A stretch of DNA of 64,000 nt from Verrucomicrobia bacterium SCGC AAA164-E04 (GCA_000383715.1 KB911950.1:1371-65370), one strand, 5' to 3'. Positions 59,583 to 62,576 are shown, numbered from the stretch's first letter. Program-made: numbers and translations. Notes: generated by a model not told the origin, from the letters alone.

Positions 59583-62576
59583 ATGACTTTTAGTTTGATG
59601 AGTAGCAAACCCATGAGCAAAGCAGCCACAACCATTCTATGCCTGGTCATAGCAGTAAGCGCAGTCTGTAGCGTGACTGCTCAATCTGTTGACCAGCTAT
59701 CCAACAGAGAAAAAGCTATACGTGAAGAAGCGGTCATAGCGTTGAGGATCAAGCTTGAACAAGCAGAGTCTTCCCGCAATGAAGCCAAAGCACGTGACGA
59801 ACTTTTGAAAACTGCTCTGCTTTATGAGGAAGCAGTCAATCACCTGAACAAGGTGGGGCCAATTGCTGCTGTTGAGGCCGAGCGACAGCGCACCGTTGAA
59901 GGTATGGCTGAAATTCGGCTCAAACTTGCCGACAAATTTCAGAAGGCGCAAAAGTTTTATGAAGCGGATCAGGAAGCTGTACGTATCTTGAAGCTGGACC
60001 CCAGTAATGAAGGCGCCCTGCAATTCAAGGCTGCAAATGACAAGCTCATCCTGCGATACACTGGAAGGCAGCCAAGCCGTGATGCCATTACCAAAATACC
60101 AGCAGTGCGCGAACAACAGATTCAGGCATCAACGATGATTCAGGATGCACGACTGTTTCTTGAGCTGAATAAATTGGAGGAGGCTGAAGCCAAGCTCAAT
60201 GAGGCCAAAAAGTTGGATCCTGAAAGCAATGCCGTCTGGTATTACCTTTCACTTCTCAATCAGAAGAAATTCCAAAGAGAAACACGCAAGCGCGAGATCA
60301 CCTCACAGGAAAAAATGATTGAGGTTGCCAATTATTGGGATCCAGGCTTAAACAAAAACGAACTTCCCATATCGAACAGCTATGCGAGCACGAACTTAGT
60401 CCACACAGGATTAGGTCGCCAAAAAATCATTTCTAAAATGGACCGTATCATTCTGGACGAAGTCGTTTTTGACGGTTTGCCATTAAGTGAAGTAGTTCAA
60501 TTTTTATATGACGAAGCCAGGGAGCGTGATGCTGAGGAGGAGGGTATCAACTTCGTTATCAGTAACCACATGGACACCGGCGTTCAGGCAAGTCCGTTTG
60601 CAGGCGGTGTGGACCCACTGACAGGTTTGCCGTCGATTGCACCATTACCCACTGAACCCGTTGATCTCTACAGTGTTGGGATCACGATCACTCCACCCTT
60701 ACGAAATGTCAAATTATCTCAGGTTGTTGAATTGGTGACAAACGTTGCTGAGACACCGATCAAATTCAGCATTCTGGATTATGCTGTGATCTTCACTAAG
60801 AAAATCGAAGAGACTGAGCCATTATTTACGCGGACTTACAAAGTTGATCCGGACGTATTCATCCAAGGGATGGAAGGAGTTACAGGGATTTCGCTTGACC
60901 AGGCAATCAACACTGGTGGCGGTGGTCAAGGCGGCGGCGGCGGCGGCGGTGGCGGCGGCGGCATGGGCGGCGGCGGCATGGGCGGCGGCGGCGGCGGCAT
61001 GGGCGGCACAAGCATGCCTATCTTATTTGCTGATCCAACGGGTATGAGCATGATGGGCGGCGGCGGTGGCATGGGCGGCGGCGGCATGGGCGGCGGCGGC
61101 GGCGGCATGGGCGGCGGCGGTGGCGGCGGCATGGGCGGCGGCATGGGCGGCGGCGGCATGGGCGGCGGCATGGGCGGCGGCATGGGCATGGGAGCCTCGG
61201 GTGGTGTTTCATCTGTGCGTATGATGGCGGATGTCCAAGTGCTTGTGCGTAACTTTTTTGCGGCGGCTGGTGTTAATTTCACTATGGGCCAGATGATGGG
61301 CGGCGGCATGGGCGGCGGCGGCATGGGCGGCGGCATGGGCGGCGGCATGGGCGGCGGCATGGGCGGCGGTTTAGGTGGAGCAGCGGGTGGTCTTGGTGGC
61401 CAACAAAGCGACGGAAAAGCTGTCTTTTTCAATGATCGCAACGGTTCTTTGTATGTCCGAGCAACCATGACTGACTTAGATATTATTGAGCAGGCAATTC
61501 AAACTCTCAATGAAATGCCCCCACAATTGACCATAGAAGCTAAATTCGCTGAATTTACACAAAACGACAGCAGAGCACTTGGATTTGACTGGTTCCTCGG
61601 CAATGTCCTTGCATTTGGTGACAAGGGTGTCTTCAGTGGTGGCACTGCTCCTTCCATGAACGGGCAGCCTTCCGCAGCCAACAGTCTTGGTATTTTCCCT
61701 GCCAGTGGTGGTATTCCCACCGCGCAGCCAACGGACGGATCTGATCAACGTCTCACCAATGGTGTCAGAACAGATGGACCGGATGGAACACCCATTCCAG
61801 CCATGGCCACTTTTACAGGTATCCTGACGGACCCACAATTCAGAGTCGTATTACGTGCTTTAGATCAACGTGATGGTGTTGATGTTCTTGCATCTCCCAG
61901 CATTACAACAGTGAGTGGCCGGCAGGCCAGTATTCGCGCTGTTGATATGCGAACCATTGTTACCGGAACAGGTGCCAACCAGCAAGGCGGCGGCGGTGGT
62001 GTTGGCGGTGGCGGCGGCGGCGGTGGTGTGAACGTTGGTGGTGGCGGTAACACGCCTCTCGGAACGACCATCACACCTCAAACCACTGTGATTCCTGAAG
62101 GCCCCATGTTAGATATTGTTCCTTATGTTTCATCAGACGGATACACAATCAAACTAACCATTTTGCCTACTTTGATTCAATTTGTAGGTTATGACGATCC
62201 AGGCCCATTCGCAGTTATTGCGCAAGGTGGTGCTGGTAGCACGGTCGCGAATCCATTGGTGGCTCAATTACCTCTACCTCGATTGCGAACACGTCAAGTT
62301 TTGACCAGTGTGGTCGTATGGGATGGCCAAACAGTTGTTCTAGGTGGACTGATTTCGGAAGACGTAGCCAAGCACAAAGACAAGGTGCCAGTTCTTGGCG
62401 ATATTCCTTTCCTCGGAAGATTTTTCCGGAGCGAATCCAACTTCACCGAGAAAAAGAATTTGGCTATTTTCGTAACGCCAACGATCGTTGACCCTGCTGG
62501 CAACCGTGTTCATGACGAAAACAATCTGCCGTATGACCCGCTGACTTTCTCAGACCGGGCTAGTGACACCGAGTAA
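59583..62576 (+). CDS. Secretin (Amuc_1098-like) with N-terminal TPRs and Gly/Met-rich inserts
   Basis: Signal peptide, TPR-like helices, PQLTIEAKF, LASPSITTVSGRQA, VWDGQTVVLGG...DKVPVLGDIPFLGRFFRS...IFVTPTIVDPAG. True start may be a downstream Met (MSSK or MSKA). Confidence 0.9.
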   Translation: MTFSLMSSKPMSKAATTILCLVIAVSAVCSVTAQSVDQLSNREKAIREEAVIALRIKLEQAESSRNEAKARDELLKTALLYEEAVNHLNKVGPIAAVEAERQRTVEGMAEIRLKLADKFQKAQKFYEADQEAVRILKLDPSNEGALQFKAANDKLILRYTGRQPSRDAITKIPAVREQQIQASTMIQDARLFLELNKLEEAEAKLNEAKKLDPESNAVWYYLSLLNQKKFQRETRKREITSQEKMIEVANYWDPGLNKNELPISNSYASTNLVHTGLGRQKIISKMDRIILDEVVFDGLPLSEVVQFLYDEARERDAEEEGINFVISNHMDTGVQASPFAGGVDPLTGLPSIAPLPTEPVDLYSVGITITPPLRNVKLSQVVELVTNVAETPIKFSILDYAVIFTKKIEETEPLFTRTYKVDPDVFIQGMEGVTGISLDQAINTGGGGQGGGGGGGGGGGMGGGGMGGGGGGMGGTSMPILFADPTGMSMMGGGGGMGGGGMGGGGGGMGGGGGGGMGGGMGGGGMGGGMGGGMGMGASGGVSSVRMMADVQVLVRNFFAAAGVNFTMGQMMGGGMGGGGMGGGMGGGMGGGMGGGLGGAAGGLGGQQSDGKAVFFNDRNGSLYVRATMTDLDIIEQAIQTLNEMPPQLTIEAKFAEFTQNDSRALGFDWFLGNVLAFGDKGVFSGGTAPSMNGQPSAANSLGIFPASGGIPTAQPTDGSDQRLTNGVRTDGPDGTPIPAMATFTGILTDPQFRVVLRALDQRDGVDVLASPSITTVSGRQASIRAVDMRTIVTGTGANQQGGGGGVGGGGGGGGVNVGGGGNTPLGTTITPQTTVIPEGPMLDIVPYVSSDGYTIKLTILPTLIQFVGYDDPGPFAVIAQGGAGSTVANPLVAQLPLPRLRTRQVLTSVVVWDGQTVVLGGLISEDVAKHKDKVPVLGDIPFLGRFFRSESNFTEKKNLAIFVTPTIVDPAGNRVHDENNLPYDPLTFSDRASDTE
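60915..61400 (+). repeat. (GGC)n-ATG low-complexity repeats encoding GGGM tracts
   Basis: Three blocks (about 60915-61007, 61050-61193, 61293-61400) of GGC runs punctuated by ATG. Confidence 0.95.
61986..62048 (+). repeat. Poly-Gly tract in the secretin domain
   Basis: Encodes GGGGGVGGGGGGGGVNVGGGG. Confidence 0.9.

What the first reader, a model, noticed from the sequence alone, without database searches (positions are those of the whole stretch)
59583..62576. Secretin with long Gly/Met-rich disordered inserts at predicted lumen-facing positions
Seen: about 160 aa dominated by GGGM repeats, in three blocks, lie between FTRTYKVDP and KAVFFNDRNGSLYVRAT. The first secretin has a much shorter, non-repetitive segment at the equivalent place. 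A second poly-Gly tract lies between SPSITTVSGRQASI and GPMLDIVP. Established: these positions correspond to the N3 constriction loop and the central gate hairpin of secretins, which form 12-16-mers. Ser/Gly-rich N3 inserts are known (e.g. Dickeya OutD), and GGM repeats form the substrate-contacting tails inside the GroEL cavity. Inference: the oligomer would fill its vestibule with a Gly/Met polymer brush, acting as a selective soft plug or chaperone-like lining rather than a rigid gate.
Basis: partly seen in the sequence, partly recalled or inferred. Interest (0 to 1): 0.75.

Follow-up and report, generated by a model that had tools for sequence, protein, structure and literature searches.

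The report
Secretin with giant glycine-rich channel loops
An outer-membrane channel protein of a marine Verrucomicrobiota bacterium carries very long, floppy glycine-rich loops at the two points where such channels narrow, a trait shared by its whole family and probably a soft seal rather than a new kind of gate.

Summary
ORF 59583-62576 (+, 997 aa) is a secretin. It has 188 aa between the two N3 anchors, including three pure Gly/Met blocks totalling 118 aa (88 G, 22 M). A further poly-Gly tract sits at the tip of the Gate-1 hairpin.

It belongs to the Verrucomicrobiota TPR-secretin family typified by Akkermansia PilQ (Amuc_1098). It lies in a conserved module of PilM-like gene, Amuc_1100-like gene, a small gene, secretin and a downstream gene.

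Both inserts map to loops that are unresolved and lumen-facing in solved secretins: the PulD N3 loop 288-303 and gate tip 462-470, the InvG N3 variable loop, and pIV.

Gly-richness at these sites holds across the family. Met does not: relatives use F, L, Q, A or S, with at least 21 switches across 51 sequences. In this genome only 2 of 3,549 long frames have such tracts, and both are secretins.

A steric estimate shows the loops would overfill the N3 ring, so they must be displaced when a filament passes.

Exact repeat length could not be confirmed: short-read contigs break at the repeat. An independent 99%-identical MAG shows the same three-block layout.

Verdict: an extreme variant of the known secretin variable loops. 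The GroEL-like chaperone reading is weak.

The parts
59583..62576 (+). Secretin gene, 997 aa (TPR-like N-terminus, N0-like domain, N3-type domain with inserts, secretin beta-barrel domain)
   Evidence: ORF. Pfam Secretin. Best NCBIfam hit is Amuc_1098_fam at 320.8 bits, below its 750 cut-off. AF2 model. VIA alignment to GspD/PilQ/pIV/InvG.
59688..60338 (+). Helical TPR-like region, aa 36-252
   Evidence: Helices in the AF2 model. The family profile hits consensus TPR proteins in the PDB. VIA hits TPR proteins. Pfam TPR families are precomputed for many homologues but were not called in the window's own protein at E <= 0.01.
60411..60800 (+). N0-like periplasmic domain, aa 277-406
   Evidence: AF2 secondary structure. 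VIA match to the EscC periplasmic domain 3gr5: Z 8.8, rmsd 2.6, 84 aligned, model 277..408.
60825..61511 (+). N3-type (KH-like, ring-building) domain, aa 415-643. Folded elements: beta1 415-420, helix 423-434, helix 548-561, beta2 613-617, beta3 622-627, alpha2 629-643.
   Evidence: AF2 of the domain alone: pLDDT 78-96 for the folded elements. Best VIA matches are secretin N-domains (BfpB N3 Z 5.8; XcpQ, InvG, PilQ, GspD at Z 5.0-5.5). Pfam Secretin_N at E 0.01, profile 25-63 only.
60912..61004 (+). Gly/Met block 1, aa 444-474 (31 aa, 26 G, 3 M)
   Evidence: pLDDT <50.
61005..61043 (+). Island 1, aa 475-487. Conserved non-repetitive segment, possibly a strand of an N3 hairpin insertion.
   Evidence: Conserved in the family alignment. 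Not structured in AF2. Absent in L005.
61044..61193 (+). Gly/Met block 2, aa 488-537 (50 aa, 37 G, 12 M)
   Evidence: TRF period 12/15, (GGC)n ATG.
61194..61289 (+). Island 2, aa 538-569. Includes the conserved helix 548-561, with F559 nearly invariant.
   Evidence: Helix pLDDT 78-92.
61290..61400 (+). Gly/Met block 3, aa 570-606 (37 aa, 25 G, 7 M), in the alpha1-beta2 variable loop of N3
   Evidence: Secretin_N resumes at profile position 25 just after it. Aligns to the place of the PulD unresolved loop 288-303.
61524..62492 (+). Secretin double-barrel domain, aa 648-970
   Evidence: AF2 strands. Pfam 759-970. VIA.
61977..62063 (+). Gate-1 hairpin tip, aa 799-827, with poly-Gly in aa 802-822
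   Evidence: pLDDT <50 between confident arms E788-800 and E828-849. Aligns to the PulD gate tip that is unresolved at 462-470. (GGC/GGT)n repeat.
55707..57590 (+). PilM-like gene (Amuc_1101-like), first gene of the conserved module
   Evidence: Pfam PilM_2 E 4.9e-37. NCBIfam Amuc_1101_fam 477.9 bits (cut-off 650) and TIGR01175 pilM 150.4 bits (cut-off 133). Synteny in 60 of 61 loci.
57590..58747 (+). 385-aa gene, weakly Amuc_1100-like
   Evidence: NCBIfam Amuc_1100_fam E 7.4e-11, 42 bits, below cut-off 180. No PDB sequence hit. Conserved synteny.
58769..59563 (+). 264-aa gene of unknown family, conserved in the module
   Evidence: No Pfam, NCBIfam or meaningful PDB hit. Conserved synteny.
62664..63998 (+). 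Conserved downstream gene, cut by the window end
   Evidence: A homologue lies downstream on the same strand in 77 of 80 related loci. Full-length copies are about 640 aa with weak fn3 and TSP3_bac matches.

Best explanation
This is the outer-membrane secretin of the Verrucomicrobiota pilus-like system whose Akkermansia counterpart is PilQ/Amuc_1098.

The loops of its last periplasmic ring domain (N3) and the tip of its Gate-1 hairpin have been expanded into long, intrinsically disordered, Gly-rich low-complexity tracts.

Shown here: the tracts exist, they sit in these loops, they are predicted disordered, and Gly-richness and length (about 100-200 aa) are kept across the family. The sequence itself turns over quickly by repeat slippage, and the non-Gly partner residue (M here) is interchangeable.

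Inferred by homology with PulD/GspD, pIV and InvG: the loops start on the lumen side. In the resting channel they form a soft, dense periplasmic constriction under the gate, and the poly-Gly gate tips fill the central hole left by the ordered gate arms. Together these improve the seal of a very wide channel.

Inferred from volume: the loops cannot stay in the N3 ring when a filament passes. They must be pushed down or out, as the InvG variable loop is when the needle is present, perhaps leaving a thin gasket around the filament.
For: Identity and context:
- Pfam Secretin.
- Best NCBIfam hits are Amuc_1098, Amuc_1101 and Amuc_1100.
- The module PilM-like < g385 < g264 < secretin is in order in 60 of 61 loci with enough flank.
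- Akkermansia PilQ is a TPR + secretin protein localised to the outer membrane (PMC4960237, passages).

Position:
- VIA aligns model 414-974 to N3 + secretin of 5w68 (Z 10.8, rmsd 5.3, 218 aligned), 9k8v (Z 10.7), 7ofh pIV (Z 9.9) and 6ve2 PilQ (Z 9.9).
- Secretin_N resumes at profile position 25 after block 3.
[quoted passage not shown] They align with block 3 and the poly-Gly tip.
- The InvG N3 variable loop 217-265 is proposed as the periplasmic constriction and threads out when the needle is present.
- BfpB has a Ser-rich N3 hairpin 'curtain' below the gate.

Disorder: pLDDT <50 in two AF2 runs.

Selection on composition and place:
- The N3 segment is 21-52% Gly in 41 of 41 aligned rows.
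- It is 25-52% Gly in the 24 best-scoring representatives that had both anchors.
- Only 2 of 3,549 frames in the genome have such tracts, and both are secretins.
- The same loop carries G-rich tracts in unrelated secretin types.
- N3 and gate Gly content covary: Spearman 0.54, 41 rows, not corrected for phylogeny.

Steric numbers: disordered N3 chain 167-208 x10^3 A^3 for 12-15 subunits, against 129 x10^3 A^3 for the ring lumen. Gate tips 30-38 x10^3 A^3, against 31 x10^3 A^3 for a 40 x 25 A hole.
Against: - No multimer model or coordinates were available, so the lumen orientation rests on homology only.
- The topology of blocks 1 and 2 is ambiguous. Two beta-alpha units (415-434 and 540-561) precede one beta-beta-alpha unit. 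AF2 keeps both helices, and Pfam matches only the second half of Secretin_N.
- In needle-bound InvG the equivalent loop lies outside the lumen, so a permanently external position is possible.
- The steric estimate uses pIV dimensions, assumed heights and residue volumes recalled from memory.
- Near-perfect DNA repeats, GGC codon homogeneity (77 of 95 in the insert vs 12 of 51 in the rest of the gene) and differences between 99%-identical strains fit a largely neutral slippage process.
- The gate tip is Gly-rich (>=26%) in only 16 of 41 rows.
- No substrate, pilin or dedicated ATPase was identified beside the operon.
- Exact repeat length is unverified.
Confidence: 0.5

Rival explanations
1. 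Near-neutral microsatellite expansion. The N3 variable loops and gate tip tolerate almost any flexible sequence, (GGC)n repeats arose there, and they drift in length and partner residue by slippage. The tracts have no role beyond being harmless linkers.
For: - Almost pure (GGC)n-ATG DNA with periods 12/15.
- GGC is 77 of 95 Gly codons in the insert, against 12 of 51 in the rest of the gene and 78 of 429 in seven other genes.
- Repeat pattern differs between strains 99% identical elsewhere.
- The partner residue needs at least 21 changes on a 51-row tree.
- L005 may have lost 65 aa including island 1.
Against: - Gly-rich tracts of about 100-190 aa persist at the same loops across a family down to about 40% identity.
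- No other protein in this genome has them except another secretin.
- Unrelated secretin types carry them at the same loop.
- In the window's clade the partners are hydrophobic (M, L, F, I). Under the standard genetic code these are not single-base neighbours of GGC.
- Length stays within a band rather than decaying.
Confidence: 0.22
2. One reading: the oligomer fills its vestibule with a Gly/Met brush that works as a selective soft plug or a chaperone-like lining, like GroEL GGM tails or FG-nucleoporins. In this view the hydrophobic partner residues are cohesive stickers that give selectivity.
For: - The loops are at lumen-proximal positions.
- In the window's nine-row clade the partner is always hydrophobic (M, L or F) at similar spacing.
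- GroEL Gly-Met tails inside a cavity are a real precedent (search listing and abstract starts only).
- The amount of chain is enough to fill the chamber.
Against: - Met is not conserved. Many family members use Q, S, A, N or R, or no dominant partner (18 of 51 rows 'none').
- Known substrates of such secretins are folded proteins or filaments, not unfolded chains (general knowledge of type II secretion and type IV pili).
- The rigid gate arms are retained.
- A filament leaves no room for the brush.
- No experiment or multimer model.
Confidence: 0.12
3. Flexible tethers for inter-subunit or inter-domain contacts. The Gly-rich stretches are only leashes that let the conserved islands (island 1, helix 548-561) reach neighbouring subunits, the N0-like ring, the gate underside or the inner-membrane alignment proteins. 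This would resemble the InvG beta-INSERTION strut and the ordered parts of the InvG variable loop.
For: - The islands are conserved while the Gly tracts vary.
- Helix 548-561 is confidently predicted.
- The InvG variable loop orders into an interface strand and a helix between N1 and N3, and its beta-INSERTION props GATE1/2.
- The BfpB N3 hairpin forms an extra layer under the gate.
Against: - Leashes of 31-50 residues are far longer than needed for contacts within a ring.
- Island 1 is unstructured in both AF2 runs and may be dispensable (L005).
- This does not explain the poly-Gly gate tip.
Confidence: 0.13
4. Assembly artefact: the long tracts are produced or inflated by mis-assembly of low-complexity short reads.
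For: - Per-run contigs from three runs all break at the repeat.
- A second contig of the L006 MAG starts inside block 3 (L009).
- L005 differs by 65 aa.
Against: - The frame stays open through all three blocks, with conserved islands in frame.
- An independent MAG gives the same layout.
- Single-contig chromosome assemblies of 3.3-10.5 Mb (L007, L010, L011, L026, L027) carry 182-208 aa between the anchors.
- Dozens of independent homologues have such tracts.
Confidence: 0.03

Closest known systems
Akkermansia muciniphila PilQ (Amuc_1098) and its gene cluster (Amuc_1098-1102)
   Same: N-terminal TPR region plus C-terminal secretin. The best NCBIfam hits of the secretin, the PilM-like gene and the 385-aa gene are Amuc_1098, Amuc_1101 and Amuc_1100 families. 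The gene order is the same, including a locus labelled Akkermansia (L019). PilQ is the most abundant outer-membrane protein there (PMC4960237, passages).
   Different: All three scores are below the curated equivalog cut-offs. The family rows I take to be closest to the gut lineage (P0037-P0049) have S/Q/M-rich inserts with 21-26% Gly, not poly-Gly/Met. The papers I queried do not describe the loops.
N3 'variable loop' of the type III secretin InvG, and the N3 constriction of GspD/PulD
   Same: The loop between alpha1 and beta2 of N3 is disordered in closed secretins, projects into the channel as a periplasmic constriction, and is displaced when the substrate filament is present (PMC6155069; bioRxiv 10.1101/397794). 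Block 3 sits at this position.
   Different: PulD's unresolved N3 loop is 16 residues and InvG's loop about 50. Here 153 residues are disordered and 118 are pure Gly/Met. There are also three tracts rather than one.
N3 beta-hairpin insertion of BfpB, InvG and MxiD
   Same: An insertion early in N3 forms an extra layer or 'curtain' under the gate. [quoted passage not shown] Blocks 1 and 2 with island 1 may occupy this insertion point. BfpB N3 is the top VIA hit of the isolated domain (Z 5.8, rmsd 3.7, 69 aligned).
   Different: No hairpin is predicted here. The composition is Gly/Met, not Ser. The equivalence of the insertion point is my inference.
Gate-1 loop tips of pIV and PulD
   Same: The very centre of the gate is flexible and unresolved: pIV 275-289 and PulD 462-470. 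The poly-Gly tract begins at the aligned column.
   Different: About 44 residues lie between the candidate hinge glycines G795 and G840. pIV has 29 between Gly267 and Gly297, and InvG has 20 between Asn386 and Gly407. 17 of 24 tip residues are Gly.
GroEL C-terminal (GGM)n tails
   Same: Gly-Met repeats attached to each subunit of a ring and projecting into its cavity (search listing and abstract starts only).
   Different: The tracts here are internal loops, not C-terminal tails, and about ten times longer. Met is not conserved among orthologues. There is no link to protein folding.
MshL-type secretins with Pfam Secretin_N_2 (PF07655), and other secretins with G-rich N-domain loops
   Same: In 4 of 4 MshL-type proteins scanned, the G/M-rich tract lies inside Secretin_N_2. 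In P0072, P0079 and P0095 it ends where Secretin_N resumes at profile position 25-26. In P0111 and P0119 the domain spans it. This genome's GspD-like secretin has a G/S/F/R repeat in the same loop.
   Different: Those tracts are single and mostly 40-70 aa. They were found by a word-based search that favours G/M words, so their frequency among secretins is unknown.

Membership tests
Secretin superfamily (Pfam PF00263) | C-terminal secretin domain scoring above the Pfam gathering threshold | tested here: met
   105.8 bits against a 27.5 cut-off, aa 759-970, full profile 1-169.
Secretin superfamily | Double beta-barrel with Gate-1/Gate-2 hairpins, preceded by an N3 ring domain | tested here: met
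   AF2 strands 648-969. VIA aligns model 414-974 to N3 + secretin of 5w68 (Z 10.8, rmsd 5.3, 218 aligned), 9k8v (Z 10.7), 7ofh (Z 9.9) and 6ve2 (Z 9.9).
Secretin superfamily | Assembly into 12-17-mer rings in the outer membrane | not testable with these tools
   No multimer model was possible. Outer-membrane location is shown only for Akkermansia PilQ (PMC4960237).
Amuc_1098 family type IV pilus outer membrane protein (NCBIfam NF042912, equivalog) | Score at or above the curated cut-off (750 bits) | tested here: not met
   It is the best NCBIfam hit, but at 320.8 bits and E 1.7e-95, with two stretches that skip the insert. I therefore call it a relative of that family, not an equivalog.
Amuc_1098 family | TPR N-terminus plus secretin C-terminus architecture | tested here: met
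   Helical repeat region aa 36-252. The profile hits consensus TPR proteins. TPR Pfam families are precomputed for many homologues. The window's own protein gave no Pfam TPR hit at E <= 0.01.
Amuc_1098 family | Operon with a PilM-like (Amuc_1101) gene and an Amuc_1100-like gene | tested here: met
   Amuc_1101_fam at 477.9 bits (cut-off 650) and Amuc_1100_fam at 42 bits (cut-off 180) are the best hits. Order is conserved in 60 of 61 loci. Scores are below the equivalog cut-offs.
Type IVa pilus secretin PilQ (TIGR02515) | Score at or above cut-off; AMIN domains at the N-terminus in classical PilQ | tested here: not met
   105.3 bits against 284.35. No AMIN domain in Pfam.
Type II secretion secretin GspD (TIGR02517) | Score at or above cut-off; N0-N1-N2-N3 domains | tested here: not met
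   153.5 bits against 351.35. Only an N0-like and one N3-type domain were found.
[quoted passage not shown] | Profile match over the whole domain, or the fold | tested here: inconclusive
   Pfam gives E 0.01, 16.5 bits against 28.2, profile positions 25-63 only. At fold level the top VIA hits of the isolated domain are secretin N-domains, but Z is only 5.0-5.8 and KH domains score alike.
GroEL-type Gly-Met tail | Conserved (GGM)n at the C-terminus of each ring subunit | tested here: not met
   The tracts are internal. Met is replaced by F, L, Q, A or S in orthologues.
FG-nucleoporin-like cohesive barrier | Hydrophobic stickers in disordered spacers that cohere into a selective phase | not testable with these tools
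   The composition is compatible in the window's clade (M/L/F partners). 18 of 51 rows have no dominant partner and others have polar ones.

The most novel reading that the evidence does not exclude
The Gly-rich tracts with sparse hydrophobic residues (M, F, L) from 12-15 subunits cohere into a gel-like plug under and within the gate. This would be a bacterial counterpart of the FG-nucleoporin permeability barrier. It would seal a channel about 7 nm wide at rest and part or reseal around the passing filament or polymer. The same solution would have arisen repeatedly in secretins of several phyla (MshL-, GspD- and PilQ-like types).
Probability: 0.12. Interest if true: 0.85.

Novelty: new variant of a known kind. 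Interest (0 to 1): 0.5.

Why it matters
Secretins are the widest gated pores of the bacterial outer membrane, and how they stay tight is still discussed. Solved structures leave exactly these two loops unresolved. Here the same loops are blown up roughly ten-fold into Gly-rich polymers, kept across a large Verrucomicrobiota family that includes the abundant Akkermansia PilQ, and seen at the same loop in other secretin types.

If the tracts act as a soft seal, they are a simple, testable addition to the gating model, and a natural system for studying disordered-polymer barriers in a bacterial channel.

If they are neutral, they are a clear case of how much low-complexity sequence a channel lumen can tolerate.

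They also warn annotators and assemblers: short-read contigs break or collapse at these genes.

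Tried and rejected
- Read-level confirmation of repeat length. The flanks are confirmed in three runs, but no contig bridges 60921 to about 61340. The interior is swamped by cross-mapping from other organisms (depth in the thousands). The raw-read run X22 gave only such cross-mapping. Inconclusive.
- phmmer of aa 405-660 against the PDB. 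Only synthetic Gly-Ser linkers and a Gly-rich SSB tail came up, which says nothing about the fold.
- Regex for a beta2-like motif after the G-rich tracts of distant secretins. It found 2 of 48. The pattern was too crude, so I replaced it with Pfam coordinates. Of the 20 proteins scanned there, 9 were placed in or at an N-domain loop, 1 was adjacent, and 10 were unresolved.
- The high share of G/M tracts among distant hits (48 of 64) is not a frequency estimate, because that search selects candidates by shared 5-residue words. In the word-free representative search the share was 33 of 148.
- PDB sequence searches for the two small operon genes gave nothing usable.
- PMC6532946 and PMC10550240 had no passage on the N3 loop orientation.
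- The OutD paper had no passage on a Ser/Gly-rich N3 insert.
- I did not use complex prediction. It reports scores, not geometry, so it could not answer which way the loops point.
- I could not decide which helix (423-434 or 548-561) is the canonical alpha1 of N3, because model coordinates are not exposed.
- Literature searches found no paper describing Gly-rich N3 loops in this family. The library lacks most subscription journals, and I opened no supplements.

Full report
**What is there**

Window 59583-62576 (+) is an open frame of 997 aa. Pfam Secretin matches aa 759-970 at E 2.5e-30.

- aa 444-474, 31 aa
- aa 488-537, 50 aa
- aa 570-606, 37 aa

Together these are 118 aa with 88 G and 22 M. 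Two non-repetitive islands separate them and are conserved in the family.

A second tract sits in the secretin domain, where 17 of 24 residues in aa 799-822 are Gly.

At the DNA level the tracts are (GGC)n-ATG tandem repeats of period 12/15. GC is 64% against 43-49% around them. GGC supplies 77 of 95 Gly codons in the insert, 12 of 51 in the rest of the gene, and 78 of 429 in seven other genes of the window.

The rest of the protein is 6.4% Gly. In the whole genome (3.95 Mb, 218 contigs, 75% complete), only 2 of 3,549 stop-to-stop frames of 150 aa or more hold a 30-aa window with at least 60% Gly. These are this secretin and the GspD-like secretin on contig C91. The tracts are therefore neither chance nor a genome-wide microsatellite habit.

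**Is the length real?**

Twenty marine or seawater runs from 18 studies hold at least half of the sampled words of 60300-61900.

I laid three sets of per-run contigs and one raw-read run on the stretch. The contigs match the flanks with no differences, but all stop at 60920 and resume at 61340-61480. No record bridges the repeats, and the interior is swamped by reads of other organisms. Short-read data therefore cannot confirm the exact repeat counts.

Other evidence does support long tracts:
- An independent MAG (L006, labelled Pedosphaera sp.) is 99% identical over 780 conserved columns. It has the same three blocks and both islands, with different repeat counts and only in-frame differences (189 vs 188 aa).
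- Five single-contig chromosome assemblies of 3.3-10.5 Mb (L007, L010, L011, L026, L027) carry 182-208 aa between the same anchors.

Two signs of assembly trouble remain:
- A second contig of the L006 MAG starts inside block 3 (L009).
- The 92% relative L005, on a short-read contig, lacks island 1 and is 65 aa shorter.

**What protein and system**

The word-based search found 178 proteins at E <= 1e-5, with the top 56 at E <= 1e-60. Most are 830-1035 aa with TPR plus Secretin Pfam families, and those that carry names are Verrucomicrobiota. The word-free search found 1,251 representative clusters at E <= 1e-30. A scan of reference genomes found 563 relatives, named Verrucomicrobiota, Limisphaerales or Pedosphaera, with a few evidently mislabelled bins.

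The best NCBIfam hit is the Amuc_1098 family, at 320.8 bits against an equivalog cut-off of 750. The upstream gene is PilM-like (Amuc_1101 family at 477.9 bits, TIGR01175 above its cut-off). The 385-aa gene is weakly Amuc_1100-like.

The order PilM-like, 385-aa gene, 264-aa gene, secretin holds in 60 of the 61 related loci that reach far enough. A homologue of the downstream gene follows in 77 of 80.

Akkermansia PilQ (Amuc_1098) is described as a 907-residue TPR + secretin protein. It is the most abundant outer-membrane protein of that organism and was localised by immunogold (PMC4960237, passages).

The locus is thus the marine counterpart of that pilus-like cluster. No ATPase or platform gene lies beside it, and the genome's ATPase and platform sets sit near other secretins or on contig ends.

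**Where the inserts sit**

The full-length AF2 model (41-row alignment, mean pLDDT 62) is confident for these parts:
- a helical TPR-like region, aa 36-252
- an N0-like domain, aa 277-406
- an N3-type domain
- the secretin barrel

It gives pLDDT <50 for aa 435-545, 568-609 and 799-827. A second model of aa 405-660 with 60 rows gives pLDDT 78-96 for beta1 415-420, helix 423-434, helix 548-561, and beta2, beta3 and alpha2 at 613-643. All three G/M blocks and island 1 remain unstructured.

VIA aligns model 414-974 to the N3 + secretin module of:
- EPEC GspD 5w68 (Z 10.8, rmsd 5.3, 218 aligned)
- V. cholerae GspD 9k8v (Z 10.7)
- pIV 7ofh (Z 9.9)
- PilQ 6ve2 (Z 9.9)
- InvG

The isolated domain's best matches are secretin N-domains, led by BfpB N3 at Z 5.8. 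These Z values are modest, and KH domains score alike.

Pfam Secretin_N matches only profile positions 25-63, directly after block 3 (E 0.01, below threshold). Block 3 is therefore in the alpha1-beta2 loop of the last N-domain.

Blocks 1 and 2 lie between beta1 and helix 548-561. There are two possibilities. Either helix 423-434 is alpha1 and everything after it is one giant variable loop with an embedded helix. Or helix 548-561 is alpha1 and blocks 1-2 occupy the beta1-alpha1 insertion point used by the BfpB/InvG hairpin. I could not decide between them without coordinates.

**Which way the loops point**

This rests on homology and on passages I read:
- In the profile alignment to 6HCG, PulD residue 313 starts the beta2 stretch that matches aa 617 onward here. 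PulD 460-469 matches aa 792-801, where the poly-Gly begins.
[quoted passage not shown] With the needle in place it threads out between N3 and N1. A separate N3 beta-insertion props GATE1/2 (PMC6155069).

**What is conserved**

In the 41-row alignment (the window plus 40 of the 120 listed hits, my choice):
- The N3 segment is 21-52% Gly in every row, and 61-193 aa long.
- Met reaches 10% or more in 15 of 41 rows.
- The gate segment is at least 26% Gly in 16 of 41 rows.

Of the 150 word-free representatives, 58 had both regex anchors. The 24 best-scoring of these were all 25-52% Gly. Most lower-scoring, longer proteins were 4-21% Gly with shorter segments.

Within the window's own clade the partner residue changes:
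- M in the window, L006 and L013
- L in L012 and L007
- F in L008, L010, L011, L026 and L027

I built a tree of 51 rows with the insert removed. Three of 54 chosen rows were dropped for lack of anchors. On it the seven partner classes need 21 changes, and 'M' needs at least 6.

Gly-richness and approximate length are therefore maintained, while Met is a labile flavour carried by repeat turnover. In the window's nine-row clade the partners are all hydrophobic, and they are not single-base neighbours of GGC (standard genetic code). This hints at some selection on partner type there. Elsewhere the partners are polar or absent.

**Other secretins**

- This genome's GspD-like secretin has a G/S/F/R repeat in the alpha1-beta2 loop of its last N-domain.
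- A third secretin has S/R/G-rich N-domain loops.
- The first secretin of the window has none.

Among more distant secretins found by the word-biased search, 48 of 64 have G-rich windows. That is not a frequency. I scanned 20 of them with Pfam:
- The tract ends where Secretin_N resumes at profile position 25-26 in three.
- It lies inside the domain call in two.
- It lies inside Secretin_N_2 in four MshL-type proteins.
- It is adjacent in one.
- It is unplaced in ten.

Gly-rich expansion of this loop is therefore recurrent across secretin types.

**How it most likely works**

I used pIV dimensions (74 A at N3, 90 A inner barrel, 40 A apparent gate aperture), assumed heights, and residue volumes recalled from memory. 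The estimates are:

| Quantity | Volume |
|---|---|
| Disordered N3 chain of 12-15 subunits | 167-208 x10^3 A^3 |
| N3 ring lumen | 129 x10^3 A^3 |
| Annulus around a 60 A filament | 44 x10^3 A^3 |
| Gate tips of 12-15 subunits | 30-38 x10^3 A^3 |
| Hole of 40 x 25 A | 31 x10^3 A^3 |

If the loops are lumenal, they form a dense plug that spills below the ring, not a dilute lining, and they must leave when a filament passes. The gate tips are about the right size to close the central aperture.

My best reading (confidence 0.5) is a soft, entropic second seal under and within a conventional gate, displaced by the substrate as in InvG.

Rivals:
- near-neutral slippage in tolerant loops (0.22)
- flexible tethers for the conserved islands (0.13)
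- assembly artefact (0.03)

**Novelty**

The loops, their disorder and their role as constrictions are known. What is new is their expansion into tracts of more than 100 aa of Gly-rich polymer, at two or three N3 positions plus the gate tip, conserved in a large family.

My searches and the Amuc_1098 papers I queried did not turn up a description. The library is incomplete, and I read no supplements.

I rate it a new variant of a known kind, with interest 0.5.

Noticed in passing
window 50199-55435 (+): Directly upstream of the PilM-like gene, on the same strand, lie a sugar epimerase/dehydratase, a WecB/TagA/CpsF glycosyltransferase, an exosortase (EpsH, TIGR02602 124.6 bits, above cut-off), an EpsI-family protein and an EPS polyprenyl glycosylphosphotransferase. 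At least one of EpsH, EpsI or the transferase lies upstream of PilM in 30 of 61 related loci, and all three in 25, including a locus labelled Akkermansia. This may link the secretin to exosortase/PEP-CTERM or polysaccharide export. A 2025 paper ties secretins to slime secretion (PMC12475490; search listing only).
   Followed up: partly
window 62664-63998 (+); L010:12150-14075; L012:12112-14025: The gene after the secretin is conserved downstream in 77 of 80 loci. Full-length copies are about 640 aa with only weak fn3 and bacterial TSP3 matches. It may be a component or substrate of the system.
   Followed up: partly
L002 (G000:C91:50218-53715): The genome's GspD-like secretin has a G/S/F/R-rich repeat of about 110 aa in the alpha1-beta2 loop of its last N-domain. 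It is the only other frame in the genome with a window of at least 60% Gly.
   Followed up: partly
L001 (G000:C1:287629-291126): A third secretin appears as two adjacent frames. One holds N-domains with S/R/G-rich loops (3-950). The other holds a secretin domain with its own hydrophobic N-terminus (991-2178). This could be a frameshift, an assembly error or a genuine split.
   Followed up: no
window 57000-57590 and 58450-58700 (+): The PilM-like protein has a long C-terminal extension with an acidic D/E/W-rich low-complexity stretch. The 385-aa protein has a G/A/Y/M-rich stretch near its C-terminus. The partner proteins of the secretin are thus also unusually rich in low-complexity sequence.
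   Followed up: no
P0060, P0062, P0100, P0101, P0105: Large VWA-domain proteins without a Secretin Pfam family were hit at E 1e-10 to 1e-20. P0060 has a G/M tract followed by an island-1-like motif, and P0100 contains a stretch resembling the family's N3 beta2-beta3-alpha2 motif. The N3-like module may occur outside secretins.
   Followed up: no
window 5326-12366 (+): A second system lies in the same window: a 697-aa secretin without Gly-rich loops, two or three unassigned genes, and a T2SSE/MshEN ATPase.
   Followed up: partly
P0041, P0044, P0047: One subclade has a Gate-1 segment of 98-105 aa with 42-44% Gly and 8-9% Met. That is about twice the length of the window's gate segment. The gate tip can therefore expand as much as the N3 loops.
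   Followed up: no
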